Positions 1 through 23,702 of a stretch of DNA of 40,333 nucleotides are shown piece by piece. A program made the position numbers and the translations under genes. Within the stretch, counting starts at the first letter, position 1. The number at the start of each line of letters is the position of its first letter. Source of the DNA: a virus. The stretch spans positions 1-40,333 of the IMG/VR virus record IMGVR_UViG_3300050126_000021. The stretch is one strand, 5' to 3'. The notes below the pieces were generated by a model. The model was not told where the DNA came from, did no database searches, and saw only the letters and a program-made list of their open reading frames with translations.

Positions 1-127
1 TATTTCAACTGGGTTCGGATTTCGTTCTTCTCGATCTGCTGTGGTTCAATGATGATGCTGTCGGGGATGCCCCAAAAGTTCTCATCATCTTGGTTGAAGA
101 TCAGCGGATAGACAGGGAGCCGGCCGT
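1..127. repeat. Left copy of an exact 127-bp terminal duplication (identical to 40207-40333)
   Basis: Base-by-base reading shows positions 1-127 equal 40207-40333. The repeat lies inside an open reading frame. Confidence 0.95.
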
Positions 128-2268: not shown

Positions 2269-3860
2269 GAGAACTTCTCTGCAATCCCGTAGCGGGTGCT
2301 GCGCTTTTTGGTTCCTTCGAAGATGTATTCCCACGAAAATGGGTTGTCGCTTGGAGTGTTCTCGTTGACAGCGGGTGGCTGGGCTGTGGCGATCGTTGCT
2401 CGCTCAACACAGATTAGCGCATGTAGTGCAGCGAATACTCGGTCGTCGAAGCAGCCCGCGTCAGCCTCGTACTTGCCGGTTTTGCTTTCAACAAAGGTGT
2501 CCAGTTCGGAGCGAAGGGTTTCGCTGTGGATGGTGTATTCGCTGGATAGCAGCCGCCTGCCGGTTCCGAGCAACAATCCCCGAGTTGTTTCGCTTGTGTA
2601 GGTTCCGAAGTTGTTGAGCTGGCTGAGGATGACTTGTGATGGTGGTTGACCGGAAGTGGTGCCGCGATGCAGGCGGTCGAGGGGGTAGGAGCCAACAAGA
2701 ACGCTGATTGTGGTAAGGCCGTGATTGTTGCGCTCTGGATTGATGTAGGCCCAGTTGAAGCGCCGGCCTAGGCCATGAGCGATGTGGCCTAGCTCGTCAG
2801 GTGCGATGTCGTTCGCGACCCATTCGGCTACTTGTTCCCTAGTATCCAGGCAGAATATCTGGATGACACTGTTGTCTCGGCCGATCCCGCCGCCGACATC
2901 GATACCGGCAACATAACCATACTCGTGGCGAGGGTGGCCCTCCAGGCACCACAGCGCCTTGCTCTCCTGCACCCAGCGAGCTACTCGCTCGTGCTTTACG
3001 ACAGGGAAGAAGCTAAAGCCGGTGGACTGGAAGCATTCATCGAAGGTACGAGGATAGTTCTCTTTGAACTTGATCAAGTCTCCATCGTAGTCGGTGAAGA
3101 TGCGCTCCCGCCTCCAGGCGAGTTGCTGCGGAGACACGCCGATGTCGAACAGCTCGGGTTCTTCTAGATCAGGATCAAGCGTCTCCACAATTCTCTCAGC
3201 CTGTTCCTGGTTGAGAGATATGGCGCAAGTGTCGAGCCCGACCCAGGAGTAGAAGAATAGCTTGAAGCCGCTTCCGTTGCGGGCTCGGACTGCTTGGCGG
3301 TGAAACCAGTTGCCGCGGCCGTTGCCAGTGGACTCGACAGTGATCTCTCCAAGCTCGGCGGCAGGGAACAATCCGCTGACTGTGTTCTCTGCGTCTGCAT
3401 AGAAAGCTGCCTCGCTGAGATGGAGATCGGTGATCGTGTCGCCTCGGCCGAAGTTGCGGCTGCCGGCGGTGCCGATCCAGAAGGTGCTGCCAGTTTCTTG
3501 GAATGAGAGCGCCTTCATATTGTCTGTGCCGATGCTTGGCCGCTTGACGCCTGGAGGGAGGCGAAGGTTGTTGACGATGAAGCGGGCGCGCTGTAGGAGA
3601 CGGGCTGTAGCGTCGGCCTCTGCACTGACAATGACGCAGCGCCGGTTCTGTTCGCCCAGGCACTTTGCCACGTAGCGGCCGATGACTAGCGTGCTGATCC
3701 CGGCGTGCTGGCGGATTTTAGTTACAAGGTTCCGCCGCGACCAGTTCGCATCTAGATCAGCCTGCTGCTCGTTCAGCTTAAAGTCGATCGCCGCCCCGAC
3801 ACGATCTACTACGCGGAAGGTATTCTCGATGACAAGGCGGTAGGGCGAGGGATGGAGCAT
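2265..3860 (-). CDS. terL: Terminase large subunit
   Basis: 531 aa with a KIRQHAGIST Walker-A-like block and DLHLSEAAF. Also has VESTGNGRGNWF, ENYPRTFDECF, nuclease-type GIDVGGG..DNSV and a C-terminal FDDRVFAAL. Confidence 0.9.
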   Translation of the reverse strand: MLHPSPYRLVIENTFRVVDRVGAAIDFKLNEQQADLDANWSRRNLVTKIRQHAGISTLVIGRYVAKCLGEQNRRCVIVSAEADATARLLQRARFIVNNLRLPPGVKRPSIGTDNMKALSFQETGSTFWIGTAGSRNFGRGDTITDLHLSEAAFYADAENTVSGLFPAAELGEITVESTGNGRGNWFHRQAVRARNGSGFKLFFYSWVGLDTCAISLNQEQAERIVETLDPDLEEPELFDIGVSPQQLAWRRERIFTDYDGDLIKFKENYPRTFDECFQSTGFSFFPVVKHERVARWVQESKALWCLEGHPRHEYGYVAGIDVGGGIGRDNSVIQIFCLDTREQVAEWVANDIAPDELGHIAHGLGRRFNWAYINPERNNHGLTTISVLVGSYPLDRLHRGTTSGQPPSQVILSQLNNFGTYTSETTRGLLLGTGRRLLSSEYTIHSETLRSELDTFVESKTGKYEADAGCFDDRVFAALHALICVERATIATAQPPAVNENTPSDNPFSWEYIFEGTKKRSTRYGIAEKFS

Positions 3861-4227: not shown

Positions 4228-5001
4228 CTAGGGCCAACGTGCTGTTATGATAATAATTCCGGCGGCACCAGCGCCACCGGCATAGCCGCTTGCTCCAGCC
4301 GTACCGGCTGAGCCTGCTGCCCCTAGCGAATAACTGTAGGTGGCGGATAGCGATGAGATCATTACTTCAGCGCAAGCTCCCGCACCGCCGCCGCCACCGC
4401 CATAGGTAGTTGAGCCCACGCCAGCTCCACCAGAGCCGCCTGCGCCTGTATTTGGTATGCCAGCAGCACCCGCGCTGGCAGTTGTCGTCATTGGCCCCGC
4501 TCCACCGATACACGATCCCGCGCCTAACCCTCCGGATGTACCGCTCGTTACAACATTAGCATTCGTATCTGACCCGGTAGCGCCGTTCCAGCCAACAGCC
4601 GGCGACCCTGAAAGGGTGCCGCCTGCGCCGCCCGTCCCTAGCGTAGAGCCTGTGCCTTCTACTCCACCCGTTCCGCCTCCAGCGGTATAGCTGCCAAAGC
4701 TAGTATTGCCGCCATTACCGCCAGCGCTTCCGCCAGAAGTGCCACTCCCACCGCCGCCGCCACCTCCGCCAATAAATTCAACTTCAAGCGATGCAGGAAG
4801 AACGCTATTGCAGAGTGGAGTGGTGTACGTGCCAGTGCCTGAGGTGTATACTGTCCGTTGCGGCAGACATGGCACAATTTGCGATGACGGTATCCTTCGG
4901 TTGAGGTGTCCGTCCGGTGACGAGCTTAGAAAGTCTGCCTGAGCTGTAGCAGAGCAAGTTGAGAGTATTGCCCCAACAAGGAGCCAGTTGCACCACTTCA
5001 T
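4228..5001 (-). CDS. Exported glycine-rich-domain protein
   Basis: Sec-type signal peptide MKWCNWLLVGAILSTCSATAQA. The core YTSGTGTYTTP..ASLEVEFIGGGGGGGGSG and long G/A/S/T runs resemble the glycine-rich domain seen in phage fibre-like proteins. Confidence 0.7.
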   Translation of the reverse strand: MKWCNWLLVGAILSTCSATAQADFLSSSPDGHLNRRIPSSQIVPCLPQRTVYTSGTGTYTTPLCNSVLPASLEVEFIGGGGGGGGSGTSGGSAGGNGGNTSFGSYTAGGGTGGVEGTGSTLGTGGAGGTLSGSPAVGWNGATGSDTNANVVTSGTSGGLGAGSCIGGAGPMTTTASAGAAGIPNTGAGGSGGAGVGSTTYGGGGGGAGACAEVMISSLSATYSYSLGAAGSAGTAGASGYAGGAGAAGIIIITARWP

Positions 5002-5011
5002 TAGTCGGCTC

Positions 5012-5506
5012 CTAGTAGTCGTGACAGATTGCGACTATGTTGATCAGGTCGGTGCTGGTGATGGAGCTAGCGAAGGTGGCCTGGAGGGTGTCGCCGCTGG
5101 CCAGGATGAGGTAGGGGTTGCCGTCGCTGTCGAGTGGGAGGCCGGGCCAGTTGACGGCGCTCATTAGGTTCTGCGCCGGGGTGCCGCTGGCAAAGCCGGC
5201 ACTCTCGACCGAGGTTATCGCCATGCCGCCGTAGCGGACAGTCGAGCTGACGAGCTGCACGGTCAGGAGGTGGGTGGCGCTGGCGTCATTGTTGGTAGAC
5301 CAGAGTGCCTTGCAGATGCTGCCATTGGTGCCCCCGGTGTAGATGGTCTTGTAGGTGCCTGCACTGTCGGTTCCTTGAAGGAACTGGACAGTGCCGCGAT
5401 TAGGGGTTTGCGGGGTGACGTAGCTGTTCGGGCTGACAGCCGCCAGAGCAACTTGGGTGTGCAGAAGTGCTGCAATGCTAGCAGCAGCGAGCAGGCGTTT
5501 GAGCAT
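5012..5506 (-). CDS. Exported hypothetical protein
   Basis: ATG 5506 lies 7 nt after GGAGG. Signal peptide MLKRLLAAASIAALLHTQVALA. The start overlaps the upstream stop as TGATG. Confidence 0.65.
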   Translation of the reverse strand: MLKRLLAAASIAALLHTQVALAAVSPNSYVTPQTPNRGTVQFLQGTDSAGTYKTIYTGGTNGSICKALWSTNNDASATHLLTVQLVSSTVRYGGMAITSVESAGFASGTPAQNLMSAVNWPGLPLDSDGNPYLILASGDTLQATFASSITSTDLINIVAICHDY

Positions 5507-5661
5507 CACAAACCTCCAAAGTTGACGCCGGCGAGGGCGGTACTGGCACGGTTGCGGGCGGTAGTGTCGGATGTCGGAACGAATTGAGCCTGAGCAGGTG
5601 GGTCGCAGTAGTGCAACAGCCAGATGGTCAGGAGTGCTGTTACTAGGAACCACCCTCTCAT
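5506..5661 (-). CDS. Small exported protein ending in NFGGL
   Basis: ATG 5661 follows GGAGGG. The 51-aa product has signal peptide MRGWFLVTALLTIWLLHYCDPPAQA and C-terminus AGVNFGGL. Confidence 0.5.
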   Translation of the reverse strand: MRGWFLVTALLTIWLLHYCDPPAQAQFVPTSDTTARNRASTALAGVNFGGL

Positions 5662-5662
5662 C

Positions 5663-6013
5663 TCACAGCCCTCCGAAGTTTCCAACAGCGTTGATGGCAA
5701 TGTAGCGAACATGGAGTGTCGTGTTGCTGTTGGTGGAGTAGAACTCGCTTCCTAGGCTGGCGGCGATCGGGACGGCTGTTGAGTTGGTGAGGTTGGCGAT
5801 AAAGGTCATTGCACTTATTGCTGCTAGCTGGGTGACAGATAGCGAGCCGCCTAGATTGCTGAATGCGGGCTGTTTGCAGGTAGCGTTGCTTGGATAACCG
5901 TAGGCGTTGAGCCATTGGTTAGTTGGGCAGGTGCTGCTCTGCGACCACGCAGCGACAGCTACTAGTCCTAGAACTGCAACTGCGAAGCAGGTTATGGCAG
6001 CGAGGCGGCGCAT
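5663..6013 (-). CDS. Exported hypothetical protein ending in NFGGL
   Basis: 116 aa with signal peptide MRRLAAITCFAVAVLGLVAVAA. Several N-x-S/T motifs are present. The C-terminus is AVGNFGGL. Confidence 0.65.
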   Translation of the reverse strand: MRRLAAITCFAVAVLGLVAVAAWSQSSTCPTNQWLNAYGYPSNATCKQPAFSNLGGSLSVTQLAAISAMTFIANLTNSTAVPIAASLGSEFYSTNSNTTLHVRYIAINAVGNFGGL

Positions 6014-6019
6014 TGGCGG

Positions 6020-6361
6020 CTAGAATAGTGCAACGACGGGGAGGACCATGCCGACTACCTGAGCTGCGATCTGGACCGCGTTAAGGACGCTGGAGAGCCA
6101 GGCAGGAGTGCTGGCTGTGGTTGTGGCAGGGGTCGTGCCGGCGGCGAGCTGAGAGCAGAAGGCCGCGCCATAGGTGGCGATCTGGCTGACGGCCGCCGGA
6201 GCAGTTGAGGCTGTAGCGGCTGCAAGGATTGGGGCTGCGGTTGAGCAGGACTGTTGAAGGCTGGCGACAGTGGAGGCCGTCACACTGGCCACAGTTGCCG
6301 GGGTTGTGCTGGAACAGCCGACAAGGCCGAGCAGGGCGATAGAGGTGAGGAGCTTCTTCAT
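6020..6361 (-). CDS. Lipoprotein with a C-terminal transmembrane helix (unimolecular-spanin-like architecture)
   Basis: MKKLLTSIALLGLVGC carries an L-V-G-C lipobox. The middle is Ala/Thr/Ser-rich. The hydrophobic C-terminus is IAAQVVGMVLPVVALF. Confidence 0.65.
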   Translation of the reverse strand: MKKLLTSIALLGLVGCSSTTPATVASVTASTVASLQQSCSTAAPILAAATASTAPAAVSQIATYGAAFCSQLAAGTTPATTTASTPAWLSSVLNAVQIAAQVVGMVLPVVALF

Positions 6362-6372
6362 GGCAGGATGTC

Positions 6373-6702
6373 CTATGATGCAGGGGTTGGGTCAGATGGA
6401 AGATGCAGCCAGGCGCCAAGGAAGTAGGTGAGGATCATTTGCTCGGCGGCGGCGACTGCGGGGGAGGTGTCGATGTGAAAGTAGGCCAGGATCGCGGAGG
6501 CAATCACGACACCTGCGGCAGCAAGGCCAGCCGAAGTTCCTGTGACGTGGACCGGAGAACTGGTTGAAACGGATTGGTAGGTTGTCGTTGTGCCGGCGGG
6601 AGAAGTTTCCTTTGTCGTAGTGGTGCTTGGAGCGCCAGGCGACGGCGGGAGAAGGCTGGGCTGTTGGGACAGGTCTCGGCCAAGGATGCTGCTGTCTGTC
6701 AT
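6373..6702 (-). CDS. Membrane protein (holin candidate)
   Basis: 109 aa with an S/T/P-rich N-terminus. One clear hydrophobic helix, GLAAAGVVIASAILAYF, and a weaker one, MILTYFLGAWL. ATGA-type overlap with the upstream gene. Confidence 0.55.
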   Translation of the reverse strand: MTDSSILGRDLSQQPSLLPPSPGAPSTTTTKETSPAGTTTTYQSVSTSSPVHVTGTSAGLAAAGVVIASAILAYFHIDTSPAVAAAEQMILTYFLGAWLHLPSDPTPAS

Positions 6703-10649: not shown

Positions 10650-10888
10650 TTCGAGGCGACGGCTATGGCTCCAGCTTCGGCGACGGCGACGGCTCCGGCT
10701 ATGGCGATGACTATGGCTCCGGCTACGGCGATGGCTCCGGCTACGGCGATGGCAACGGCGATGGCTACGGCAACGGCTCCGGCTGTGGCTCCGGCTACGG
10801 CGACGGCGACGGCTACGGCTACGGCTCCGGCTACGGCTCCGGCTACGGCGACGGCTCCGGCAACGGCTCCTCTCAAGATATCGTTTGA
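10637..10888 (+). CDS. (Gly-X)n repeat protein, with X mostly Tyr/Asp/Ser/Asn
   Basis: ATG 10637 overlaps the upstream gene end. After MVAIIR, almost every second codon is GGC. The protein is acidic with no basic residue after the N-terminus. Confidence 0.5.
   Translation: MVAIIRGDGYGSSFGDGDGSGYGDDYGSGYGDGSGYGDGNGDGYGNGSGCGSGYGDGDGYGYGSGYGSGYGDGSGNGSSQDIV
10655..10870. repeat. About 216 bp of degenerate 6-nt (GGC-NNN) tandem repeat
   Basis: Read directly. Three track ORFs on both strands run through it, as expected of a low-complexity repeat. Confidence 0.9.
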
Positions 10889-10900
10889 AAAGGGAAAATC

Positions 10901-11128
10901 ATGTCCAAAACCACCCGAATCGCTGCCGCAGCGGTTGGCGAGCTCTTGAACCGTGGCGAGGTCGCGCTCGTCCAATGGTTACTGGGCCAGGACAACTCTA
11001 GGATCACTAGAGCCTTCCTCCTAGCCGAATGGGAGAATATGTGGCAGGGCAGGTCAGTCTATCTCGCCATGCTGCATCAGTGCCACGAAGATGTAGAGAG
11101 GTCGATACGATGCTCCCTGATGAGATAA
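10901..11128 (+). CDS. Hypothetical protein
   Basis: 75-aa ORF. ATG follows AAGGGAAAA. Confidence 0.5.
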   Translation: MSKTTRIAAAAVGELLNRGEVALVQWLLGQDNSRITRAFLLAEWENMWQGRSVYLAMLHQCHEDVERSIRCSLMR

Positions 11129-13322: not shown

Positions 13323-13522
13323 TGGCCCAACGTGCTCGTCCTGACGGCCGCAAGTCGGCAGACACTGAGGTGATCACGCTTCGCCTTGGCGCGTCGCGTG
13401 TGCATGAGGTGAAGCTGCTACTTGTTGATCCTGCTACCGGCAGGATGCCTTATGGTGCTTGGGGTCGAGCACTGGACGAAGCGTTGGAGCTGTGGCTGGA
13501 GAGAAGGAAGATTGCGGCATGA
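13322..13522 (+). CDS. Small protein, possibly ribbon-helix-helix-like
   Basis: TAATG overlap with the upstream gene. A beta-strand-like VITLRLG is followed by helices. The fold call is a guess. Confidence 0.45.
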   Translation: MAQRARPDGRKSADTEVITLRLGASRVHEVKLLLVDPATGRMPYGAWGRALDEALELWLERRKIAA

Positions 13523-13758
13523 CCGTAACTGACAGTGACATAGACACTCAAATCGCTCTACAAGACTTTCGCCAGCGGGTGTTGAACAGGCAACCTATCC
13601 AGGCGCACGAGTATCGAGCGATAATGAACCAGCTACAGCGGAATGTCGCTAGTCGGGCTGCGGCGATGTCATCGGCTAGCAGGAAAGCTAAAAAGGCTAC
13701 CAGCGCCGAGTCAGCGAAGCCGGTCAACTTACTAGAATTGTTCGGGCCGAAGTCGTGA
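13519..13758 (+). CDS. Hypothetical protein
   Basis: ATGA overlap at 13519. 79 aa. Confidence 0.55.
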   Translation: MTVTDSDIDTQIALQDFRQRVLNRQPIQAHEYRAIMNQLQRNVASRAAAMSSASRKAKKATSAESAKPVNLLELFGPKS

Positions 13759-13786: not shown

Positions 13787-15088
13787 ATGAACGATCCAGC
13801 CACCAACGAGCTGCTAGACAAACTAGCAACCGTCGTGCAGGAGCACAATAATCCTGCTCCGCGCCAGCTCACTAGAGCTGAACAAGCTGCCAAGACCAGC
13901 CAACAAACCACGTCAGAGCTGCCTACTCAAGCAGGTCCTCTCGGCATCCGGTTTGACTTTAACGAAGGCTGCCGCATCTACCTGCCGACCCTCGCTGAAG
14001 GCTTCTATCGTGTCCGCATCCGTGACCTGGATACAGGAAACACGTTGATCGACACGGGAGATTACAAAGGCGGCTGGGTGCGATCCTCTCGCCTCTACTA
14101 CTCTCGCTTCTGCATTGAGATCAAGGTGGGCGAGGAAGGCAGCAGTGACGGAAAGACCCTGATCCTGCGCCATGACTACGATCCGACAGGCAGAGACATC
14201 CTTATCAATCTCCCTCCTGGCACCCTCGGCGACAGCATCGGCTGGTTCAGCTACGTGCCACAGTGGCTAGTTGAGCATCCAGGGTCAAAGCTAACCTGCC
14301 GCATCCAGCGTCGCATGATCCCGTTGTTCTCTCCAGGCTATCCAGATATCACCTTCCTCCCGTGCGAGGAATCGCTAGACGCCTCCAAGGGCTACTATGC
14401 GACCTATCACCTCGGCCTGTTTTACAAAGACACCGAACATGTCTGCGCGCCATGTGATCACCGTCTAGTAGGGTTACATCGCACCGCAGCCTACATCTTA
14501 GGTCTCGACCCTCTAGAACACCGGCCACGCATCCAGCCGGACTTTAAAGGTCGTCCAATCGAACAACCCTACGTCTGTATCGCCACCCAAGCCACAACTC
14601 AGCCGAAGTATTGGAACAATCCAACAGGCTGGATAGAGCTGATTGCCTGGCTAAAGGAGCAAGGCTACCGTGTCATCTGCATCGATGCAGTGAAGGCTCA
14701 TGGTGACGGTACTCACTACAACACTATCCCTTGGGGCTGTGAGGACCAGACCGGAGATCGCCCGCTCATAGAGCGAGTGCGCTGGTTGCGACATGCAGAG
14801 TTCTTTGTCGGCCTTAGTAGTGGGCTATCATGGCTTGCTTGGGCTGCCGGGTGTCCTGTTGTCCTCATCAGTGGCTTCACGCATCCAATCAATGAGTTCT
14901 ACACGCCCCACCGTGTTATAAACTACCACACCTGCAACTCCTGCTGGAACGACAGCCGGCATGATTTCGACAACAACGATTTCCTGTGGTGCCCCCGCCA
15001 CGCAGGAACAAGTCGCCAGTTCGAATGCACCCGGCTGATCACTACAGACCTAGTGAAGCGAGTTATCCAGCCACTGCTGAAACACTAA
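13787..15088 (+). CDS. TibC/Aah-family (autotransporter-type) protein O-heptosyltransferase homolog
   Basis: Near full-length block similarity recalled from TibC/Aah. Shared blocks include PTQAGP, FDFNEG, GTLGDSIGWFSY and QPYVCIATQATTQPKYWNNPTGW. Also IPWGCEDQTG..PLIERV.WL.HAEFFVGLSSGLSWLAWAAGCPVVLISGF, EFYTP.RV.N, a C-x2-C-x15-C-x11-C cluster and FECTRLIT. Confidence 0.8.
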   Translation: MNDPATNELLDKLATVVQEHNNPAPRQLTRAEQAAKTSQQTTSELPTQAGPLGIRFDFNEGCRIYLPTLAEGFYRVRIRDLDTGNTLIDTGDYKGGWVRSSRLYYSRFCIEIKVGEEGSSDGKTLILRHDYDPTGRDILINLPPGTLGDSIGWFSYVPQWLVEHPGSKLTCRIQRRMIPLFSPGYPDITFLPCEESLDASKGYYATYHLGLFYKDTEHVCAPCDHRLVGLHRTAAYILGLDPLEHRPRIQPDFKGRPIEQPYVCIATQATTQPKYWNNPTGWIELIAWLKEQGYRVICIDAVKAHGDGTHYNTIPWGCEDQTGDRPLIERVRWLRHAEFFVGLSSGLSWLAWAAGCPVVLISGFTHPINEFYTPHRVINYHTCNSCWNDSRHDFDNNDFLWCPRHAGTSRQFECTRLITTDLVKRVIQPLLKH

Positions 15089-15102
15089 CTGAGGGGCCTC
15101 CC

Positions 15103-16101
15103 TTGGACCTAGAGCAATTCCCTTTCCCTGCCACTATCGACAATACTATGCGAGAAGAATGGTGGAAATGCCGCCACAGCTTCTTTCGCCGTCATATCCA
15201 GGGACTTCAACACATCCCGCTTGGTGCTCCAGGCGAGCAGCCGCCGGATGTAAACATCCATCTCCATTTCGGCGGGGCACTTGCGCGGGGGCTAGAGATC
15301 ACTCGCAAGTCTTGGACGCAGGACGGCAAGTCTAACGATCAAGCAATGCAGGATGGCGCAGAGGCACTTATCACCGCCTGGGGCGAAGCGATCCTGCCGC
15401 CGCCAACCACGCGCAACGAGGAGAACAAAACCCTCCAGTCCTGCCTCCTAGCCCATCAAGCCTACTTCCGAGAGTGGCCCCTAGACGATCCGATGCAGAA
15501 GGTGGCTACCGCAGAGGGACAAGCCATCGTCGAGTTCAGCGGCGCGCTTCCCATACCTGGATGCTACCATCCTGTCACCAAGGAACAGCTACTCTACTCC
15601 GGTCGTTTTGATGGAATGCTCGACCGTGGCAAGCTGTGGGGGCTGGACGACAAAACAACTGGGAGCCAAGTATCATCCTCAGCATGGCGGGCCCAGTGGC
15701 AATTGAATGGACAGTTCACCGGCTACTGCTGGCTGGCTCAAGGCTACGGCTTCAGAGTCAGCGACTTCTTGGTCCATGGGATACAAATTCTCAAAACAGA
15801 TATAAGGCTTGCAGAGGTATTGTGCCCTCGGCCGGCCTGGATGGTGGAACAGTGGCTGGGTCAGCTACAGGCTGATGTCAAGCAGATGATTGTGGCTTAT
15901 GAAGTGTTTATACTAGGTCTAGAAGTAGATGGCTTCATACCATCGCATCCTTTCGCTCAAGCCCTCGGTCATGCCTGCGTCAGCTTCAACCAGCCCTGCC
16001 AATACCTGACTGACCTGTGCGGCCAGCCTAATCCTGACGACTGGCTTGACAGGTTCCGAGTTGAGCGCTGGAACCCTTTGCGGAGGAAGGTAGATGAATA
16101 A
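15103..16101 (+). CDS. PD-(D/E)XK (RecB/Cas4-like) exonuclease
   Basis: Contains GRFDGML ... LWGLDDKTTG ... QLNGQFTGYCW (D, D-x-K and Q-x3-Y motifs). The start is TTG 15103, 6 nt after GAGGGG, or ATG 15148. Confidence 0.7.
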   Translation: MDLEQFPFPATIDNTMREEWWKCRHSFFRRHIQGLQHIPLGAPGEQPPDVNIHLHFGGALARGLEITRKSWTQDGKSNDQAMQDGAEALITAWGEAILPPPTTRNEENKTLQSCLLAHQAYFREWPLDDPMQKVATAEGQAIVEFSGALPIPGCYHPVTKEQLLYSGRFDGMLDRGKLWGLDDKTTGSQVSSSAWRAQWQLNGQFTGYCWLAQGYGFRVSDFLVHGIQILKTDIRLAEVLCPRPAWMVEQWLGQLQADVKQMIVAYEVFILGLEVDGFIPSHPFAQALGHACVSFNQPCQYLTDLCGQPNPDDWLDRFRVERWNPLRRKVDE

Positions 16102-19558: not shown

Positions 19559-19781
19559 ACACGCAATCGATCTGCGCGGGCAGCAATTCGGCCGGCTTCG
19601 CGTCATCCGACGCAGCTACTTCCCTTCTCGCCACAGGGAAATATACTGGTACTGCAAGTGCACCTGCGGGAAACTCACTCATGTTATAGGACGAGAGCTG
19701 CGCCGGGGACGTACAAAGAGCTGCGGCTGTCTACAACGTGAGTGCGCTGCTGCGGTTGGTCGTGCTAGGAAGAAAGCATGA
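19551..19781 (+). CDS. Small zinc-ribbon protein
   Basis: ATG 19551 overlaps the upstream stop. Contains GQQFGRLRVI...YWYCKCTCG...SCGCL. Confidence 0.55.
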   Translation: MPRHAIDLRGQQFGRLRVIRRSYFPSRHREIYWYCKCTCGKLTHVIGRELRRGRTKSCGCLQRECAAAVGRARKKA

Positions 19782-21481
19782 CACGCTGGATTGAAAGCGG
19801 CGATCCACGCTCCCCGGTTTGGATCATCGCCGAGGCTCCAGGCGAGGATGAAATCCGCCAGGGCCGTCCGCTTGTCGGACAGAGTGGACAAGAGCTTGAC
19901 CGCTGCCTGCGTGATGCTGGCTGGCCTCCAGATTTCCAGTTCTTTCGTACCAACATCTGCCATCAGCGCCCGCCATCCTACCAGAACAAGTATGGAAAGT
20001 GGATACATAATGATATTGAGCAATTCTTCGTCAGTCGTGCGGAAGCTAAAAGGTCCGATGTACGAGAACTACTTGGTAGGTTTCCACTTGATCCTGTCAC
20101 AGAAGGAATTGATCGACTTAGCAACCATCTTCAACACTTCCGGCCTACACTCATTATCGCTCTCGGAGGAATTTCGCTGTGGGCGTTGGGCGGTAAGGAA
20201 GGTATCCTTAAATGGAGAGGAAGTATTCTCTCTACGGAGAGTGGGATCAAAGCCATCTCCACCCTCCACCCCGCCGACATCCTCTACCAGTGGCAGCACC
20301 GGCCACTTCTAGTCCAAGACCTTCGCCGGGCGCTGCGGGAGAGCAAGTATTCCGAGATCAGGAGACCAACATGGAATTTCGTGATCGCTCCTACTATCGC
20401 TGATCTTCGAGACTGGCTGTTACCGTGTATCGAGCGCAGACAGCCACTGGTATGCGACACGGAAGGATGGGGAGTGGTAGACTGCGTTGGTTTCGCCGCC
20501 AACAGCAAAGATGCCATCTGCGTACCATTTGTCCGCGAAGCTGGACAGCTCACAACCTATTTCACGCCGGGCGATGCCGAGCAGGCAATGAGCCTGTGTA
20601 CCGCGGCCCTGCGCCAGTGTCCCGTAACGTTTCACAACGCCACCTGGGACTGTCAAGTAATCGCCCGCCGCTGGGGAATGCTGCCGAACCTAACTGATGA
20701 CACAATGGTAATGCAACACGCCTTGTTCCCCGGACTACTTGGCGGAAAGATTGATCCGACTACTGGGACAGTTGAGAAGAAAGGTTCTTCCCTCAGTCTC
20801 TCCTTCATCGCCTCAATGTATTGTGAATACTACTCTTACTGGAAAGATGACGGACGAGTACGCGGTGATAATTACGACGATGACACATACTGGAAATATA
20901 ACTGTGAGGATTGTGTACGCACATACGAGTGTAGAGAGGTTCTTACAGAGGCTCTTAGAAGTGCCGGCCTGGAGGAGCAATACAGGTTTCTGATGTCCTT
21001 GTTTGCTCCAGTCCTGTCAATGATGTTCCGAGGAATGCGCCTGGACAGGGAGCGTGTTAAAGACATCAAGAACAGCATTGTCAAACAGCGAGCTGATCAA
21101 CAACAATGGCTAGACACCGCTGTAGGCTTCCCGCTCAACGTCGGCAGTGCGCCTCAGGTCCACAGCTTGTTCTACGACGACTTGCGGCAGCAGAAAGTTC
21201 TCCACCGCTCAACCCGCAAGCCTAGTGTTGACGACACCGCGCTTGAGACCATCGCGCGCCGTCAACCTCTGCTACTGCCACTCTGCCGCACAATCCAGAA
21301 CATCCGCTCCCTCAACACCAATGAGCGGAATTTCGTGGCGGCTGCGGAGAAGGCTAAAGACCGCCTCTACACCTGCTTAAACATCACCGGCGCAGAAACA
21401 TTCCGTTTCAGCTCAAACGAGACTGCGTTCGGCGAGGGATGTAATCTACAGAACCTCACCAGACCACCGGAGGATCAATGA
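19778..21481 (+). CDS. DNA polymerase A part 1: UDG-like domain, 3'-5' exonuclease and N-terminal polymerase region
   Basis: UDG motifs are IIAEAPGEDE..GRPLVGQSG and LHPADIL. Exonuclease motifs are LVCDTEG, FHNATWDCQV and YNCEDC. The ORF ends just after the TG..RFSS....NLQNL block. Confidence 0.85.
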   Translation: MTRWIESGDPRSPVWIIAEAPGEDEIRQGRPLVGQSGQELDRCLRDAGWPPDFQFFRTNICHQRPPSYQNKYGKWIHNDIEQFFVSRAEAKRSDVRELLGRFPLDPVTEGIDRLSNHLQHFRPTLIIALGGISLWALGGKEGILKWRGSILSTESGIKAISTLHPADILYQWQHRPLLVQDLRRALRESKYSEIRRPTWNFVIAPTIADLRDWLLPCIERRQPLVCDTEGWGVVDCVGFAANSKDAICVPFVREAGQLTTYFTPGDAEQAMSLCTAALRQCPVTFHNATWDCQVIARRWGMLPNLTDDTMVMQHALFPGLLGGKIDPTTGTVEKKGSSLSLSFIASMYCEYYSYWKDDGRVRGDNYDDDTYWKYNCEDCVRTYECREVLTEALRSAGLEEQYRFLMSLFAPVLSMMFRGMRLDRERVKDIKNSIVKQRADQQQWLDTAVGFPLNVGSAPQVHSLFYDDLRQQKVLHRSTRKPSVDDTALETIARRQPLLLPLCRTIQNIRSLNTNERNFVAAAEKAKDRLYTCLNITGAETFRFSSNETAFGEGCNLQNLTRPPEDQ

Positions 21482-21678
21482 CTGCCATCAAAGATGCAGC
21501 TTTCCTAACCGACTGGGCAAGCAAAATAGCCATCAATCGACGCAGTAGCTTGCCGCTCCGTGTGGTCCGGTACATTGAAGCAATTCAGCACATGGACCAT
21601 GAGCAGCTTTGCCTGTTTCTTGCCCTGGCCCTAATCATCGGGCATTTCGAGCTGCCACCGTTTCCAGATGAGGAATAG
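21478..21678 (+). CDS. Hypothetical protein (between the polymerase halves)
   Basis: 66 aa with an ATGA overlap with polymerase part 1. Confidence 0.5.
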   Translation: MTAIKDAAFLTDWASKIAINRRSSLPLRVVRYIEAIQHMDHEQLCLFLALALIIGHFELPPFPDEE

Positions 21679-21724
21679 GAGTAAGCCAAAATGGTGCGAT
21701 ATCCCATCTACAAGGAGACAATCG

Positions 21725-22045
21725 ATGCCCCCTGAGAACCTTCCCTTTCTAGGCGCTACCAACGACGACATGATCCAGGTGCGAGACAGTCAGAGACGCC
21801 TGCTCGGTGCGATCCCGGCTGATCGCGTACCGGCGGATGCGTATAGCTACATCGATGCTGAGGGGAAAGCTTACCCTCTCCGCCTAGCCGGGCTGACCTG
21901 CATCGAGATCACAGAGCCGGTAGAGTTTGATCCTGCCAACTTCCCCGGCTTCGTGTTCTATGCCAATGGGCCAACGCTGGGCCAGCTCAAAGCCGAGGCA
22001 CAACTTATCCGGCCGGATGATCCTGACATCGGCAAAGCACCATGA
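21725..22045 (+). CDS. Hypothetical protein (between the polymerase halves)
   Basis: ATG 21725 lies 6 nt after AAGGAGA. 106 aa. Confidence 0.55.
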   Translation: MPPENLPFLGATNDDMIQVRDSQRRLLGAIPADRVPADAYSYIDAEGKAYPLRLAGLTCIEITEPVEFDPANFPGFVFYANGPTLGQLKAEAQLIRPDDPDIGKAP

Positions 22046-22239
22046 GCGGATCATTTGCCGGCTTCAAGTCTCGCAAGGGCGAGGAACTTCGGCTGGATGC
22101 TTCCCAGCTAAATCAGCGTATCGACATCATCCGGAGAAACGGGACGGTGGTGTTCAGTGTACATGAGGAGGAAGCACGCAACCTAGTTCTAGCCTTGAAG
22201 CTACACTTCGAATACAACTGCTGGGAGTGGCCGACGTGA
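22042..22239 (+). CDS. Hypothetical protein (between the polymerase halves)
   Basis: 65 aa with an ATGA overlap. Confidence 0.5.
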   Translation: MSGSFAGFKSRKGEELRLDASQLNQRIDIIRRNGTVVFSVHEEEARNLVLALKLHFEYNCWEWPT

Positions 22240-22844
22240 GCATCTTGATCATTGACACCGAGACAACTGGTGTAAACCCTCGCGAGGCGAGGATAGTTCA
22301 ACTGGCAGCCTATCACATGGGCGATGGTCCAGCATGGCCTTTTCTCGGGCAGCTCAATGAGATCATCCGGCCACAGGGCTTTATGATCCCCGAGGAGGCC
22401 ACAGCCATCCACGGGATAGATCAAGACACAGCCCTTCGCAAAGGCCGTCCACTCGCCAGCGTGCTTGATCAGCTCCATGCGCTAGCAGTCGAAGCCTTCT
22501 CCGACAATCTCGACCCCTGGCTGGTCGCGCACAATCTCAACTACGACTTCGCCGTACTCTGTCACGAGTTCGAGCGGATAGGTGCTTCCTCCTACGCCCT
22601 GACACGTCTCTTTCCCATGTGCACAATGCAAGCAATGACCCGGAGATGTAATCTCCCCGGCAAGTACCCCGGAAAGCCAAAGTGGCCTAAGCTACAGGAA
22701 GCCTACACGTTTTGCTTCCCCGAAGGGTACACCAGCACAGACATTGCTCAGGCCCACACTGCAATGGGAGATGTGCTCAAGTGCCGAGATATCTACAAAC
22801 ACGGCTGGGAGCAAGGATGGTGGGGTAGCAAGGTAGGACAGTAA
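22227..22844 (+). CDS. DnaQ/epsilon-like DEDDh 3'-5' exonuclease
   Basis: ExoI is LIIDTETTG, ExoII is HNLNYDFAVL and ExoIII is HTAMGDVLKCRDI. Starts at GTG. Confidence 0.8.
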   Translation: MADVSILIIDTETTGVNPREARIVQLAAYHMGDGPAWPFLGQLNEIIRPQGFMIPEEATAIHGIDQDTALRKGRPLASVLDQLHALAVEAFSDNLDPWLVAHNLNYDFAVLCHEFERIGASSYALTRLFPMCTMQAMTRRCNLPGKYPGKPKWPKLQEAYTFCFPEGYTSTDIAQAHTAMGDVLKCRDIYKHGWEQGWWGSKVGQ

Positions 22845-22847
22845 CCT

Positions 22848-23702
22848 GTGCCACTACCAGACCCTTATACTCTCTCCCCGCCTAACATCCGGGCAATGCT
22901 TGTGCCTGATCCGGGCTATTGCTTTGCTGAGGTGGACCTGAGTGGTGCCGACGCACAGGTAGTCGCCTGGGAAGCAGGCGCGGAGAATTTGAAGCGTAAG
23001 CTACAAGCAAGCTACGATCTACATACAGAGAATGCTTATCACATCTATGGTCGAGATATCTCGCATCCTCGCCACACTCTCCATGTCAACGGGATGACCT
23101 TCCGAGACAACGCAAAACGTGCTGTGCATGCAGCTAACTATGCTGTCAGCTACCGAACGCTGGCGCAGAGCACAAGCATCACCGAGGCCAGAGCTACCGC
23201 CTTTCTTAACTGGTGGGCCAAAACAGAAAACCCCGCAATCGGCGAGTGGCATGAGAAAACAGAATACACTCTTCGCAGTCGCAGGATGCCAGTCATCCGA
23301 AACGCCTGGGGGTTTCGAAAGACATACACTGAGCGCTACAGCCCACAGCTACTACATCAAGCTCTAGCCTGGATCGCGCAATCAACAGTCGGGGTGACGA
23401 TCAACAAGATTATGTGTAAGATTGATTGTTGCTTGGACCTGTTAGGGCAGCCTAGATGCGGAAAGTGTCTGGTCTGCCGGCTCCAGAGCCAAGGAAGATT
23501 TAACGACCTGCAACTGCAACTTCAAATCCACGACAGCGTGTTGATGCAGATACGGCTAGATTGTTGCGGGGAACTGTTCCCTCTCGTACTTGAAGCCGCC
23601 AAAGTATCGATCCCTTACGCTGATCCGCTAGTAATTCCCTGTGAACTTAAATGGTCCCCTGTTGACTTTAGCTCGATGGAGAAGTGGGATGACAGCAAGT
23701 AA
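22848..23702 (+). CDS. DNA polymerase A part 2 (motifs A, B and C)
   Basis: Motif A is VDLSGADAQVVAW, motif B is RDNAKRAVHAANYAVSY and motif C is QIHDSVL. GTG start 4 nt after the upstream stop. Confidence 0.85.
   Translation: MPLPDPYTLSPPNIRAMLVPDPGYCFAEVDLSGADAQVVAWEAGAENLKRKLQASYDLHTENAYHIYGRDISHPRHTLHVNGMTFRDNAKRAVHAANYAVSYRTLAQSTSITEARATAFLNWWAKTENPAIGEWHEKTEYTLRSRRMPVIRNAWGFRKTYTERYSPQLLHQALAWIAQSTVGVTINKIMCKIDCCLDLLGQPRCGKCLVCRLQSQGRFNDLQLQLQIHDSVLMQIRLDCCGELFPLVLEAAKVSIPYADPLVIPCELKWSPVDFSSMEKWDDSK

What the first reader, a model, noticed from the sequence alone, without database searches (positions are those of the whole stretch)
13787..15088. Orphan TibC/Aah-type protein O-heptosyltransferase in a lytic-looking phage
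- The 433-aa ORF matches the bacterial autotransporter heptosyltransferase family along almost its whole length.
- Shared blocks include GTLGD.IGWF.Y, QPYVCIATQ.T.Q.KYWNN..GW and GL.SGLSWLAWA..CPVVLISGF.
- The C-terminal four-Cys cluster C-x2-C-x15-C-x11-C is followed by FECTRLIT.
- In bacteria these enzymes use ADP-heptose in the cytoplasm to decorate Ser residues of beta-helical adhesins encoded next door.
- This genome has no autotransporter, and the gene sits among early/middle genes.
- Possible substrates are the phage's own S/T/N/G-rich proteins: fibre 33564..34460, the charge-poor protein 29261..30595 and the exported proteins 4228..6013. Host surface adhesins are another option.
- It could also divert ADP-heptose from LPS core synthesis.
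Basis: partly seen in the sequence, partly recalled or inferred. Interest (0 to 1): 0.8.

Follow-up and report, generated by a model that had tools for sequence, protein, structure and literature searches.

The report
Orphan protein heptosyltransferase in a podophage
A complete 40-kb tailed phage carries an intact bacterial-type enzyme that attaches heptose sugars to serines of proteins, but not the giant adhesin such enzymes normally decorate, so its target, perhaps the phage's own particle, is still unknown.

Summary
ORF 13787..15088 (433 aa) is a full-length TibC/Aah-type autotransporter heptosyltransferase (BAHT). It scores 548 bits on TIGR04414 (cutoff 200) and only 13-21 bits on LPS heptosyltransferase models. 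Its AF2 model matches TibC at TM 0.85-0.87. The catalytic Asp, the four sugar-binding residues and the four iron-finger Cys are all intact.

The window is a complete, circularly closed 40,206-bp podovirus with no AIDA-like acceptor gene. The gene is a clean lineage-specific insertion: about 17 related phage contigs keep the flanking genes but lack it. Its codon usage matches the phage. It is a long branch, about 60% identical to bacterial homologues that are about 73% identical to each other. Uniquely among 120 homologues, its dodecamer-forming "thumb" tip is polar (T309-H310).

Phage-borne enzymes of this family are not rare: at least 211 IMG/VR stretches, many beside tail genes.

Best reading: an active, trans-acting O-heptosyltransferase running on host ADP-heptose. 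I favour phage-encoded, probably virion, proteins as acceptors (about 0.4) over host beta-helical adhesins (about 0.3). The acceptor is not shown. I rate it a new variant of a known kind, of moderate interest.

The parts
13787..15088 (+). BAHT (TibC/Aah-type protein O-heptosyltransferase) ORF, 433 aa
   Evidence: TIGR04414 scores 548 bits against a cutoff of 200. TibC in the PDB matches at E about 1e-113. The AF2 model has pLDDT 80.6 and matches 4RAP at TM 0.85-0.87, E=8e-45.
13787..13915 (+). N-terminal extension (residues 1-43), not present in TibC
   Evidence: It lies outside the profile and PDB alignment and has low pLDDT. Bacterial homologues carry variable extensions of similar length.
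13934..14122 (+). N-terminal beta-barrel domain (TibC_1st), residues 50-112
   Evidence: PF21129 scores 60.9 bits. The AF2 model shows strands 55-130. Translation checked.
14219..14233 (+). GTLGD motif containing the catalytic base D149 (TibC D110)
   Evidence: Alignment to 4RAP and 4RB4; 4RB4 is the D110A mutant. D is invariant in 119 bacterial and 56 viral homologues. The role of D110 comes from PMC4358343.
14546..14890 (+). GT9-type C-lobe with sugar-binding residues T270, K274, R330 and W349, and the donor-selectivity residue S344
   Evidence: PF01075 scores 36 bits. The residues map to TibC T226, K230, R286, W305 and P300. Ser at this position is the AAH state, which tolerates both ADP-D,D- and ADP-L,D-heptose.
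14702..14722 (+). Beta-hairpin 'thumb' tip, GDG-T309-H310-Y311-N; polar instead of the hydrophobic pair
   Evidence: All 119 nearest homologues have L/I/Y/M/V at the first position, V/I/L/M/T at the second (T in 3 of 119), then W in 116. 'TH' occurs once among 120 sequences. TibC F265D and V266D mutants are dimers and inactive on TibA. AF2 pLDDT is below 50 for residues 303-312.
14933..15028 (+). Iron-finger, C383-x2-C386-x15-C402-x11-C414
   Evidence: The four Cys map to TibC C339, C342, C358 and C370. They are invariant in all 56 viral sequences and in 118-119 of 119 bacterial ones. Translation checked.
13519..13758 (+). Upstream flanking gene (79-99 aa), conserved in sister phages
   Evidence: tblastn finds homologues in L005, L024, L007, L018 and L020. 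The L190 gene call starts at the position equivalent to 13519.
15103..16101 (+). Downstream flanking gene (332 aa, unknown function, followed by a Sak4-like gene); start TTG 15103 with GAGGGG at 15091-15096
   Evidence: Homologues occur in 17 related viral loci. The L190 gene call matches. Sequence. In the closest relative, L005, the two flanking genes are separated by only 66 nt.
32593..32655 (-). Weak candidate acceptor site YLSNTQLVASGGETVVLSSTT in the tail nozzle protein (31165..33024)
   Evidence: This is the second-highest-scoring window (17.4) for a PSSM built from 2,275 S/T-GG windows of cognate partner proteins, and the best-supported one: 0 of 200 shuffles reach it. AF2 (pLDDT 88) places S133-G134-G135 in a loop between strands. 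The fold is a podovirus nozzle. Caveat: SGG at this turn also occurs in 2 of 25 homologues.
35954..36016 (-). Weak candidate acceptor site ATVPDEVVISGGTYSSITLNR in the 206-aa protein encoded just before the SU10-type adaptor gene
   Evidence: PSSM score 13.1, p=0.005 against shuffles. The motif is conserved in relative L187 as LIVSGGTLTGVTV.
33564..34460 (-).
   Evidence: 18% Ser. It has no AIDA-like site above shuffles (score 5.8, p=0.44). It is conserved at 55% and 42% in relatives L187 and L188. No Pfam, PHROG or PDB hit.
4228..5001 (-).
   Evidence: It has a signal-peptide-like N-terminus and is 54% S/T/N/G. Its PSSM score of 18.8 is composition-driven (p=0.045). No homologue was found in the relatives examined.

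Best explanation
The ORF encodes a catalytically competent protein O-heptosyltransferase of the TibC/Aah (BAHT) type. A proteobacterial gene was captured and then fixed as a lineage-specific cargo gene in the early/middle operon of a complete, apparently virulent 40.2-kb podovirus.

**Proposed mechanism**
1. The enzyme is made in the host cytoplasm before or during late gene expression.
2. It uses the host's ADP-glycero-manno-heptose. The phage has no heptose pathway, and Ser344 predicts tolerance of both epimers.
3. D149 acts as the catalytic base and transfers heptose onto serine hydroxyls in short beta-strand/turn/beta-strand elements.
4. No AIDA-like partner is encoded anywhere in the genome, so it must act in trans.

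**Acceptor (inferred, not shown)**
- I commit to phage-encoded proteins as the most likely acceptors, above all virion components. Candidates are single SGG turns in the tail nozzle and in the protein encoded just before the adaptor gene.
- The enzyme would have been re-tuned for them, possibly working as a back-to-back dimer rather than the canonical dodecamer, because the hydrophobic thumb tip that builds the ring is replaced by Thr-His.

**Status of each step**
- Shown: family, fold, intact active-site, donor-site and Fe-site residues, orphan status, insertion, compositional match to the phage, long branch.
- Inferred: activity, donor, oligomeric state, acceptor.
For: **Enzyme identity**
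- TIGR04414 scores 548 bits against a cutoff of 200; LPS heptosyltransferase models score 13-21 bits.
- TibC in the PDB matches at E about 1e-113.
- Foldseek gives TM 0.85-0.87 to 4RAP/4RB4, against 0.53-0.58 for WaaC, WaaF and another GT9 structure.

**Intact residues**
- D149, T270, K274, R330, W349, the four Cys and F412 are all present, and Ser344 is AAH-like.
- 145 of 157 positions that are at least 95% conserved in homologues are retained.

**Resident, selected phage gene**
- Its GC (0.553), GC3 (0.627) and codon usage are the closest of all genes to the phage's pooled usage. The nearest bacterial genes have GC 0.65-0.67 and GC3 0.87.
- An independent assembly is 100% identical.

**Lineage-specific insertion**
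- About 17 related viral contigs keep the flanking genes without it.
- In L005 the flanking genes are 66 nt apart.

**Orphan**
- The genome is complete and circular.
- No phage ORF resembles any of 60 cognate partner proteins.
- No PHROG or Pfam AIDA-type hit.

**Signs of re-tuning**
- It is about 60% identical to 119 homologues that are about 73% identical to each other.
- The thumb tip T309-H310-Y311 is unique among 120 sequences.
- TibC F265D and V266D mutants give dimers.

**Phage precedent for structural targets**
- The large viral TIGR04414 clade sits next to tail sheath and tail tube genes and collagen-like giant proteins, and also lacks the canonical thumb.
- In L029 the BAHT follows an AIDA-like protein beside a weak tail-fibre-like hit.
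- In Mel-JY01 the TibC domain lies next to a 'structural protein'.

**Candidate sites**
- for the PSSM scores, for the nozzle loop.
Against: - No acceptor is demonstrated.
- The two candidate SGG sites are single motifs. One is conserved in a relative of unknown BAHT status. The nozzle SGG also occurs in 2 of 25 homologues.
- Neither candidate is a right-handed beta-helix; the nozzle is a beta-propeller-type fold.
- The gene lies in the early/middle unit, on the opposite strand from the structural genes.
- The iron-finger, which TibC uses to bind the TibA beta-helix, is almost identical to that of bacterial homologues. That argues for an AIDA-like, and therefore host-encoded, acceptor.
- Sister phages manage without the gene.
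- If the host LPS lacks heptose, donor supply is uncertain.
- By analogy with the TibC thumb mutants, the polar thumb tip could instead mean reduced activity.
Confidence: 0.4

Rival explanations
1. The enzyme keeps its ancestral specificity and heptosylates host-encoded AIDA-like beta-helical surface proteins, the giant adhesins that sit next to its closest bacterial homologues. During infection this would alter the cell surface, for example by masking or modifying a receptor to limit superinfection or loss of progeny on debris, or by stabilising an adhesin.
For: - The nearest homologues (53-61% identity) come from soil and peat Alphaproteobacteria, Paraburkholderia, Trinickia and Methylococcales.
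- They lie beside giant Gly/Ser-rich proteins with SGG repeats in 37 of 58 loci, nearly always on the same strand.
- The iron-finger and acceptor-side motifs are almost identical to those homologues.
- The phage encodes no such protein.
- Placement among early/middle genes fits a host-directed function.
Against: - The benefit to a virulent phage with a short cycle is unclear.
- A host with such adhesins usually has its own BAHT, which would make the phage copy redundant.
- The long branch, the 12 changes at otherwise at least 95%-conserved positions, and the loss of the hydrophobic thumb tip needed for TibA heptosylation argue against unchanged function.
- The host is unknown.
Confidence: 0.3
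2. The enzyme targets some other host protein as a takeover or counter-defence modification, or it mainly drains ADP-heptose and so alters the LPS core.
For: - The gene sits in the early/middle operon beside recombination and replication genes.
- Phages are known to modify host proteins post-translationally (my own knowledge, for example the T4 ADP-ribosyltransferases).
- TibC modifies short synthetic peptides, so a non-beta-helix acceptor is conceivable.
Against: - No candidate target is known and there is no precedent for BAHT enzymes acting on cytoplasmic proteins.
- GT-B transferases need an acceptor, so a pure donor sink would be inefficient.
- The full acceptor-binding architecture (beta-barrel and iron finger) is conserved, which a simple sink would not need.
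- None of this is testable with these tools.
Confidence: 0.12
3. The gene is a neutral or decaying passenger (a moron with no current function), or it encodes an enzyme crippled by the thumb change.
For: - It is present in only one sampled lineage: about 17 relatives lack it and no homologue above 61% identity exists among 5.8 billion clustered proteins.
- The polar thumb tip sits at the positions where Asp substitutions (F265D, V266D) abolish TibA heptosylation by TibC.
Against: - The 433-codon ORF is intact, with every tested catalytic, donor-binding and Fe-binding residue present and 92% of highly conserved positions retained.
- Its codon usage is the best match to the phage among all genes, implying long residence under selection.
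- A 40-kb virulent podovirus rarely keeps 1.3 kb of dead weight (inference).
Confidence: 0.1

Closest known systems
TibC of enterotoxigenic E. coli H10407 (PDB 4RAP, 4RB4; Yao et al. 2014, PMC4358343)
   Same: - About 50% identical over residues 41-430.
- Same domain order: beta-barrel, GT-B catalytic domain, thumb, iron-finger.
- Catalytic D110, sugar-binding T226, K230, R286 and W305, and Fe ligands C339, C342, C358 and C370 are all conserved.
- The AF2 model superposes at TM 0.85-0.87.
   Different: - The thumb tip F265-V266-W267 is T309-H310-Y311.
- The donor-selectivity residue P300 is Ser344.
- A 43-residue N-terminal extension is present.
- No tibA-like gene is adjacent.
- The gene is carried by a phage rather than a virulence island.
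AAH/Aah, the AIDA-I heptosyltransferase of diffusely adhering E. coli
   Same: - Same family (the TIGR04414 model is named for Aah and TibC).
- It shares Ser at the stereoselectivity position (AAH S294 = S344). In AAH this allows use of ADP-L,D-heptose as well as ADP-D,D-heptose.
   Different: - AAH is encoded directly upstream of its substrate AIDA-I (established knowledge).
- The window enzyme has no partner gene, and its thumb tip is polar.
BAHT plus giant AIDA-like repeat protein pairs of soil Alphaproteobacteria and Burkholderiaceae (e.g. Bradyrhizobium sp. LMG 9283, Stellaceae and Acetobacteraceae MAGs, Paraburkholderia)
   Same: - These are the closest sequences (53-61% identity).
- They share the N-terminal extension style and a near-identical iron-finger.
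- Ser at the selectivity site in 114 of 119.
   Different: - They sit beside 600-3,700-aa SGG-repeat proteins.
- The two nearest bacterial genes checked have GC3 of about 0.87, against 0.63 here.
- They are about 73% identical to each other but only about 60% identical to the phage enzyme.
- All keep the hydrophobic thumb tip.
Phage-borne TIGR04414 enzymes in IMG/VR and INPHARED (e.g. the 1,226-aa fusion protein of Microcystis phage Mel-JY01; the tail-sheath-adjacent ~400-aa proteins of apparently T4-like phage contigs; L027, L029 and L031)
   Same: - All are viral carriers of the same family, and 10 of 10 tested pass the curated cutoff.
- D, K, W and the four Cys are invariant.
- The distant clade also has a non-canonical thumb.
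- L031 is likewise an orphan among non-structural genes.
   Different: - The big viral clade is only 30-37% identical, lies in structural modules and is often fused to GT4 or FkbM domains.
- L027, L028 and L029 keep an adjacent AIDA-like partner.
- The window gene is an independent capture of the proteobacterial type.
LPS core heptosyltransferases WaaC, WaaF and WaaQ (GT9)
   Same: - Same GT-B/GT9 C-lobe and the same ADP-heptose donor.
   Different: - Only 13-21 bits on their models.
- TM 0.53-0.58 and 12-17% identity.
- They lack the beta-barrel, thumb and iron-finger.
- Their acceptor is lipid A-Kdo rather than protein.
Virion glycosylation by mycobacteriophage-encoded glycosyltransferases (Freeman et al. 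2023, from my own knowledge; alluded to in PMC11256854)
   Same: - It is a precedent for a phage enzyme glycosylating its own capsid or tail proteins in the host cytoplasm. This is the functional analogy behind the favoured explanation.
   Different: - Unrelated glycosyltransferase families and sugars.
- Those genes lie next to the structural genes.
- Glycosylation is experimentally shown there and not here.

Membership tests
BAHT (TibC/Aah autotransporter O-heptosyltransferase, TIGR04414) | Full-length match to the family profile above its curated cutoff | tested here: met
   547.9 bits against a cutoff of 200, E=1.1e-164, profile positions 2-372 of 374.
BAHT (TibC/Aah autotransporter O-heptosyltransferase, TIGR04414) | N-terminal flattened beta-barrel domain preceding the GT-B catalytic domain | tested here: met
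   PF21129 TibC_1st scores 60.9 bits over residues 50-112. The AF2 model shows strands 55-130 at pLDDT above 90.
BAHT (TibC/Aah autotransporter O-heptosyltransferase, TIGR04414) | Catalytic base Asp (TibC D110) and ADP-heptose-binding residues (T226, K230, R286, W305) | tested here: met
   D149, T270, K274, R330 and W349 are all present.
BAHT (TibC/Aah autotransporter O-heptosyltransferase, TIGR04414) | 1Fe-0S iron-finger with four Cys ligands | tested here: met
   C383, C386, C402 and C414 with spacing 2/15/11 align to TibC C339, C342, C358 and C370. Metal binding itself is not testable here.
BAHT (TibC/Aah autotransporter O-heptosyltransferase, TIGR04414) | Overall fold closest to TibC rather than to other GT9 or GT-B enzymes | tested here: met
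   Foldseek gives 4RAP/4RB4 at E 8e-45 to 3e-37 and TM 0.84-0.87. The next best are WaaF, WaaC and another GT9 structure at E 3e-10 to 2e-6 and TM 0.53-0.58.
   A thumb of normal length is present, but its tip is T309-H310 followed by Y311 in place of W. All 119 nearest homologues have L/I/Y/M/V at the first position and V/I/L/M/T at the second, T in 3 of 119. F265D and V266D abolish the dodecamer and TibA heptosylation.
BAHT (TibC/Aah autotransporter O-heptosyltransferase, TIGR04414) | Ring-shaped dodecameric assembly | not testable with these tools
   Only monomer prediction is available, and the thumb (residues 303-312) has pLDDT below 50.
BAHT (TibC/Aah autotransporter O-heptosyltransferase, TIGR04414) | ADP-heptose-dependent O-heptosylation of Ser in strand-loop-strand acceptors | not testable with these tools
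   Requires biochemistry. Only the residue-level prerequisites were checked.
Canonical BAHT system (enzyme plus adjacent beta-helical autotransporter or AIDA-like acceptor) | Cognate AIDA-like repeat or autotransporter gene next to, or at least in the same genome as, the enzyme | tested here: not met
   The genome is complete. blastp and phmmer of 53 ORFs against 60 partner proteins gave no hit, the best being E=0.029 at about 6 bits with filters off. No AIDA-type Pfam or PHROG hit. In bacteria, 37 of 58 loci have the partner within three genes either side.
LPS core heptosyltransferases (WaaC/WaaF/WaaQ, GT9) | Match to the equivalog models above their cutoffs | tested here: not met
   13.1-21 bits against cutoffs of 185-467. 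Foldseek gives about 14-17% identity and TM 0.53-0.56.
Phage structural-module TIGR04414 clade (beside tail sheath/tube genes; often GT4/FkbM fusions) | Close sequence relationship and placement in the structural gene cluster | tested here: not met
   Only 30-37% identical to that clade, against 58-64% to bacterial-type sequences. The gene lies in the replication-side operon.

The most novel reading that the evidence does not exclude
A virulent podovirus has captured a bacterial adhesin heptosyltransferase and re-tuned it, through a polar thumb and accelerated divergence, into a dimeric trans-acting enzyme that O-heptosylates its own virion proteins. This would be the first case of virus-directed protein heptosylation. 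More broadly, TIGR04414-type enzymes, found in at least 211 IMG/VR stretches and many of them beside tail sheath and tube genes, would form a widespread and unstudied phage particle-glycosylation system.
Probability: 0.3. Interest if true: 0.7.

Novelty: new variant of a known kind. Interest (0 to 1): 0.45.

Why it matters
- BAHT enzymes are known only as partners of bacterial adhesins, and protein heptosylation has not been described for any virus in the literature I could search.
- An intact, codon-adapted orphan copy in a small virulent phage implies a target other than the textbook one: phage particle proteins or host surface proteins.
- Either answer would add a new post-translational tool to phage biology, bearing on particle stability, receptor binding, immune or defence evasion, or surface remodelling.
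- The natural Thr-His thumb variant tests whether the dodecamer ring is needed for activity.
- The enzyme is small and soluble and would use the ADP-heptose that E. coli makes, so the question can be tested directly by co-expression and mass spectrometry.
- The wider finding that the family is common in phage structural modules gives the question scope beyond this one genome.

Tried and rejected
- **Known phage:** DNA searches of the gene and of a 20-kb stretch against 50,697 phage records found nothing. tblastn found only four records at 28-33% identity.
- **Single-sequence IMG/VR scan:** nothing found. The alignment-based scan was needed.
- **Contigs of phage-like size (36-45 kb) among the top hits:** P0026 and P0054, whose longest contigs are 37.6 and 45.0 kb (the place read for P0054 is 40.5 kb), are bacterial loci with giant repeat proteins.
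- **Hidden AIDA-like partner in the phage:** blastp, default phmmer and phmmer --max were all negative.
the fibre 33564..34460 and the protein 29261..30595 have no acceptor-like site above shuffled controls. The fibre has no PDB, Pfam or PHROG match.
- **Nozzle SGG turn as a co-varying signature:** rejected as strong evidence, because 2 of 25 homologues also have SGG there.
- **Promoter and terminator scan around the gene:** hit counts equal those in shuffled sequence, so it is uninformative.
- **Recent transfer or assembly chimera:** rejected by composition and by the identical independent contig.
- **Heptose-donor pathway or lysogeny genes in the phage:** none found in the ORFs scanned.
- **DNA glycosylation:** considered and set aside. 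The protein keeps the protein-acceptor architecture, and the phage shows no hypermodified-base pathway in the scanned ORFs.
- **Literature:** searches for phage-encoded BAHT returned nothing relevant.
Full report
**1. The observation**

ORF 13787..15088 (+) is a 433-codon reading frame running from ATG to TAA.
- Against NCBIfam it hits the equivalog model TIGR04414, "autotransporter strand-loop-strand O-heptosyltransferase" (Aah/TibC). E is 1.1e-164 and the score is 547.9 bits against a cutoff of 200, over profile positions 2-372 of 374.
- The LPS heptosyltransferase models (heptosyltransferase I, RfaQ, RfaC) reach only 13-21 bits against cutoffs of 185-467.
- Pfam sees the TibC N-terminal domain plus Glyco_transf_9.
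- The only solved relatives are the two TibC entries 4RAP and 4RB4, at E about 1e-113 over residues 41-430.
- An AF2 model built from 54 homologues (pLDDT 80.6, pTM 0.80) matches TibC chains at TM 0.84-0.87 and E down to 8e-45. WaaF, WaaC and another GT9 structure follow at TM 0.53-0.58.
- The quoted sequence blocks and the C-x2-C-x15-C-x11-C spacing are exact. The fourth Cys lies inside FECTRLIT rather than before it.

**2. Residue-level check against the TibC paper (PMC4358343)**

- The catalytic base D110 maps to D149.
- The sugar-binding residues T226, K230, R286 and W305 map to T270, K274, R330 and W349.
- The Fe ligands C339, C342, C358 and C370 map to C383, C386, C402 and C414. F368 maps to F412.
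- The D, K, R and W positions are invariant in the 119 closest database homologues; T270 is Thr in 105 and Ser in 14, and the four Cys are Cys in 118-119. D, K, W and the four Cys are also invariant in 56 non-redundant viral homologues.
- The stereoselectivity position (Pro300 in TibC, Ser294 in AAH) is Ser344. In the paper's swap experiments, Ser allows both ADP-D,D- and ADP-L,D-heptose.

One tested feature departs from the family.
- The tip of the beta-hairpin thumb is F265-V266-W267 in TibC. In all 119 homologues it is L/I/Y/M/V, then V/I/L/M/T (T in 3 of 119), then W in 116.
- Here it is T309-H310-Y311, the only "TH" among 120 sequences.
- TibC F265D and V266D mutants elute as dimers and no longer heptosylate TibA.
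- The AF2 monomer is uninformative for this hairpin, with pLDDT below 50 for residues 303-312.

**3. The genome**

- The first and last 127 nt of the window are identical. The contig is therefore a closed genome of 40,206 bp, and the portal gene spans the junction.
- It encodes:
  - a split family-A DNA polymerase, a DnaQ-like exonuclease and a primase;
  - a Sak4-like protein;
  - an Rv2525c-type endolysin;
  - the large terminase, the major capsid protein and an SU10-type adaptor;
  - a T7 gp12-like nozzle, an internal virion protein with a transglycosylase domain, and a fibre with a Peptidase_S74 chaperone.
- No integrase, repressor or heptose-pathway enzyme was found among the ORFs scanned.
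- There is no DNA match to any of 50,697 phage records. Protein-level relatives are 25-35% identical 40-45-kb podoviruses.
- Two convergent transcription units meet near position 25.3 kb. The BAHT gene lies about 5 kb into the rightward non-structural unit.

**4. Origin and residence of the gene**

- Nineteen IMG/VR contigs carry a DNA polymerase related to this phage's; the 18 closest are 46-64% identical.
- About 17 loci retain the neighbours in the order 13322-13459--15103-Sak4. None has a BAHT.
- In the closest relative (L005), the two flanking genes are 66 nt apart. In the window, the 1,302-nt ORF sits between them with 28-nt and 14-nt spacers.
- The gene's GC (0.553), GC3 (0.627) and codon usage are the closest of all genes to the phage's pooled usage. 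The nearest bacterial genes have GC 0.65-0.67 and GC3 0.87.
- A Logan assembly of SRR35930653 is 100% identical over 7,588 bp spanning both junctions.
- The nearest proteins among 5.8 billion clusters are 53-61% identical. They come from soil and peat Alphaproteobacteria (Bradyrhizobium, Xanthobacteraceae, Stellaceae, Acetobacteraceae, Rhodopila, Roseiarcus), Paraburkholderia, Trinickia and Methylococcales.
- In the conserved core, the phage enzyme is 58-64% identical to each of the 119 homologues, while they average 73% among themselves.
- 145 of 157 positions that are at least 95% conserved are retained. The 12 changes include W311Y in the thumb, H396N in the iron-finger and S269A next to T270.
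- I read this as an old capture kept under purifying selection on catalysis, with accelerated change elsewhere.

**5. The missing partner**

- The closest bacterial genes lie directly beside 600-3,700-aa Gly/Ser-rich proteins built from AIDA-like repeats of the form "V-S-S-G-G-x-A-S-G-T-x-I".
- By homology, 37 of 58 loci have such a protein within three genes either side, nearly always on the same strand.
- No phage ORF resembles any of 60 such partners. blastp gave a best E of 0.012, default phmmer gave nothing, and phmmer with filters off gave a best E of 0.029 at about 6 bits.
- The enzyme is therefore a true orphan in a complete genome.

**6. Acceptor candidates**

- I built a PSSM from 2,275 S/T-GG-centred windows of the partner proteins and scored every phage ORF against 200 shuffles of itself.
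- Three ORFs stand out:
  - the nozzle, with YLSNTQLVASGGETVVLSSTT (score 17.4; 0 of 200 shuffles reach it);
  - the 206-aa protein encoded just before the adaptor gene, with ATVPDEVVISGGTYSSITLNR (score 13.1; p=0.005);
  - the Gly-rich exported protein 4228..5001 (score 18.8; p=0.045; composition-driven).
- In a confident AF2 model of the nozzle (pLDDT 88), S133-G134-G135 forms a loop between strands.
- The protein is a beta-propeller-type nozzle, not a beta-helix.
- SGG occurs at the same turn in 2 of 25 homologues. The other motif is conserved in a relative of unknown BAHT status.
- These are leads, not evidence.

**7. BAHT-family genes in other phages**

- An alignment-based scan of IMG/VR found 211 stretches encoding relatives. 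Ten of ten representatives pass the TIGR04414 cutoff at 317-626 bits.
- A large clade at 30-37% identity, with about 400-aa stand-alone forms or 700-1,500-aa fusions to GT4 or FkbM domains, is embedded in structural modules. Its conserved neighbours are a tail-sheath-like protein (37 loci), a tail-tube-like protein (33 loci) and collagen-like GTSG-repeat giants (33 loci); I assigned the sheath and tube by inspecting the cluster sequences, not by a profile search. This clade has a divergent or shortened thumb.
- In Microcystis phage Mel-JY01, the TibC-like domain ends a 1,226-aa protein next to a "structural protein".
- The viral genes closest to the window keep a partner:
  - L027 (56% identity) has a BAHT, a 442-aa AIDA-like protein and a LysR-like regulator (recognised from its sequence only, not scanned) inserted between two baseplate genes of a prophage.
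  - L029 (47% identity) is a temperate phage with a DGR reverse transcriptase, in which the BAHT follows a 683-aa AIDA-like protein (phrog_21473) beside a weak tail-fibre-like hit.
- L031 (44% identity) is another orphan, lying among non-structural genes just ahead of the large terminase and a probable portal gene.
- Full-text searches found no paper on phage-encoded BAHTs.

**8. Interpretation**

- Shown: family, fold, intact active, donor and metal sites, orphan status, clean lineage-specific insertion, compositional match to the phage, long branch, polar thumb tip.
- Inferred: the enzyme is active, draws on host ADP-heptose and acts in trans.

For the acceptor I weigh two readings.
- In favour of phage-encoded, probably virion, proteins (about 0.4):
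  - the accelerated, site-specific divergence;
  - the loss of the ring-forming contact that is needed for long beta-helix substrates;
  - the association of viral homologues with structural modules;
  - the precedent of virion glycosylation in mycobacteriophages (my own knowledge).
- In favour of host AIDA-like adhesins (about 0.3):
  - the near-identical iron-finger;
  - the ancestral pairing with such adhesins;
  - the absence of any convincing phage beta-helix;
  - the early/middle placement of the gene.
- Other host targets or ADP-heptose diversion (about 0.12) and a functionless passenger (about 0.1) are less likely.

**9. Verdict**

- The specific substrate list is unsupported, and the rarity is overstated.
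- The enzyme is a clear sequence and structure member of the BAHT family. It fails two features of the canonical system, the adjacent acceptor and the hydrophobic thumb tip, so I file it as a new variant of a known kind.
- Interest is moderate (0.45). The function is open and readily testable, but the protein family, its chemistry and even its presence in viral contigs are not new.

Noticed in passing
window 1..127 and 40207..40333: The first and last 127 nt are identical, so the contig is a closed (circular or terminally redundant) genome of 40,206 bp. The portal gene (about 580 aa, minus strand) spans the junction (39429..40206 plus 1..~1000).
   Followed up: yes
window 982..2334 (-): A 450-aa ATP-grasp-like protein (weak GARS_C hit only) sits between the large terminase and portal genes. 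It is conserved at 65% in relative L188. Its function in a packaging module is unexplained.
   Followed up: partly
window 30597..31127 (-): A GNAT acetyltransferase lies inside the tail module, between the S74-chaperone fibre and the nozzle. It is conserved at 51% in relative L187, and may be a second protein-modifying enzyme of this phage group.
   Followed up: partly
window 4228..6702 (-): A block of five small, low-charge proteins (signal peptides or a transmembrane segment; lipobox LVGCSS at 6020..6361; a Gly-run protein at 4228..5001) lies between the putative small-terminase-like gene and the large terminase. The block is absent at this position in L188 and partly present in L025, so it looks like a variable cargo region.
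   Followed up: partly
window 19778..23702 (+): The family-A DNA polymerase is split into two ORFs (19778..21481 and 22848..23702). Between them lie a small ORF and a DnaQ/RNase_T-type exonuclease (22227..22844).
   Followed up: no
window 10665..10949 (+): This ORF encodes an Ala/Thr/Pro/Met low-complexity repeat (ATAPAMAMTMAPATAMAPATAM...). It may not be a real gene and was not examined.
   Followed up: no
L034-L106 (IMG/VR loci), e.g. L039:3248-4450, L065:3022-4218: A large clade of TIGR04414-passing enzymes lies in phage structural modules, immediately upstream of tail-sheath-like and tail-tube-like genes (recognised by inspection of the sequences). They often sit beside FkbM or GT4 domains and collagen-like GTSG-repeat giant proteins. 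This looks like an undescribed phage glycosylation module.
   Followed up: partly
L029:7909-11251 and 13950-15074: A temperate phage contig (with an integrase) has an AIDA-like 683-aa protein (phrog_21473) directly followed by a BAHT. They lie next to a Hoc-like Ig protein and a DGR reverse transcriptase.
   Followed up: partly
L027:3649-9535: In this prophage, a LysR-like regulator (recognised from its sequence only, not scanned), a BAHT and a 442-aa AIDA-like repeat protein are inserted between the baseplate assembly (V-like) and baseplate wedge (W/gp25-like) genes. This looks like a moron-type enzyme-plus-substrate cassette.
   Followed up: partly
L026:4750-8430 (Microcystis phage Mel-JY01, PP395634): The deposited annotation 'methyltransferase FkbM' covers a 1,226-aa multidomain protein whose C-terminal 360 residues are a TIGR04414-passing TibC-like domain (317 bits). 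A 'cytidylyltransferase like protein' lies 3 kb downstream and might activate a sugar.
   Followed up: partly
L001:2-6031: The giant AIDA-like repeat protein beside the closest bacterial BAHT ends in what looks like a Hint/intein-like domain ('CFLAGTRI...'), recognised by eye only. The equivalent L002 locus carries a type I secretion system (ABC transporter, HlyD-like, OEP). These acceptors may therefore not be classical autotransporters.
   Followed up: no
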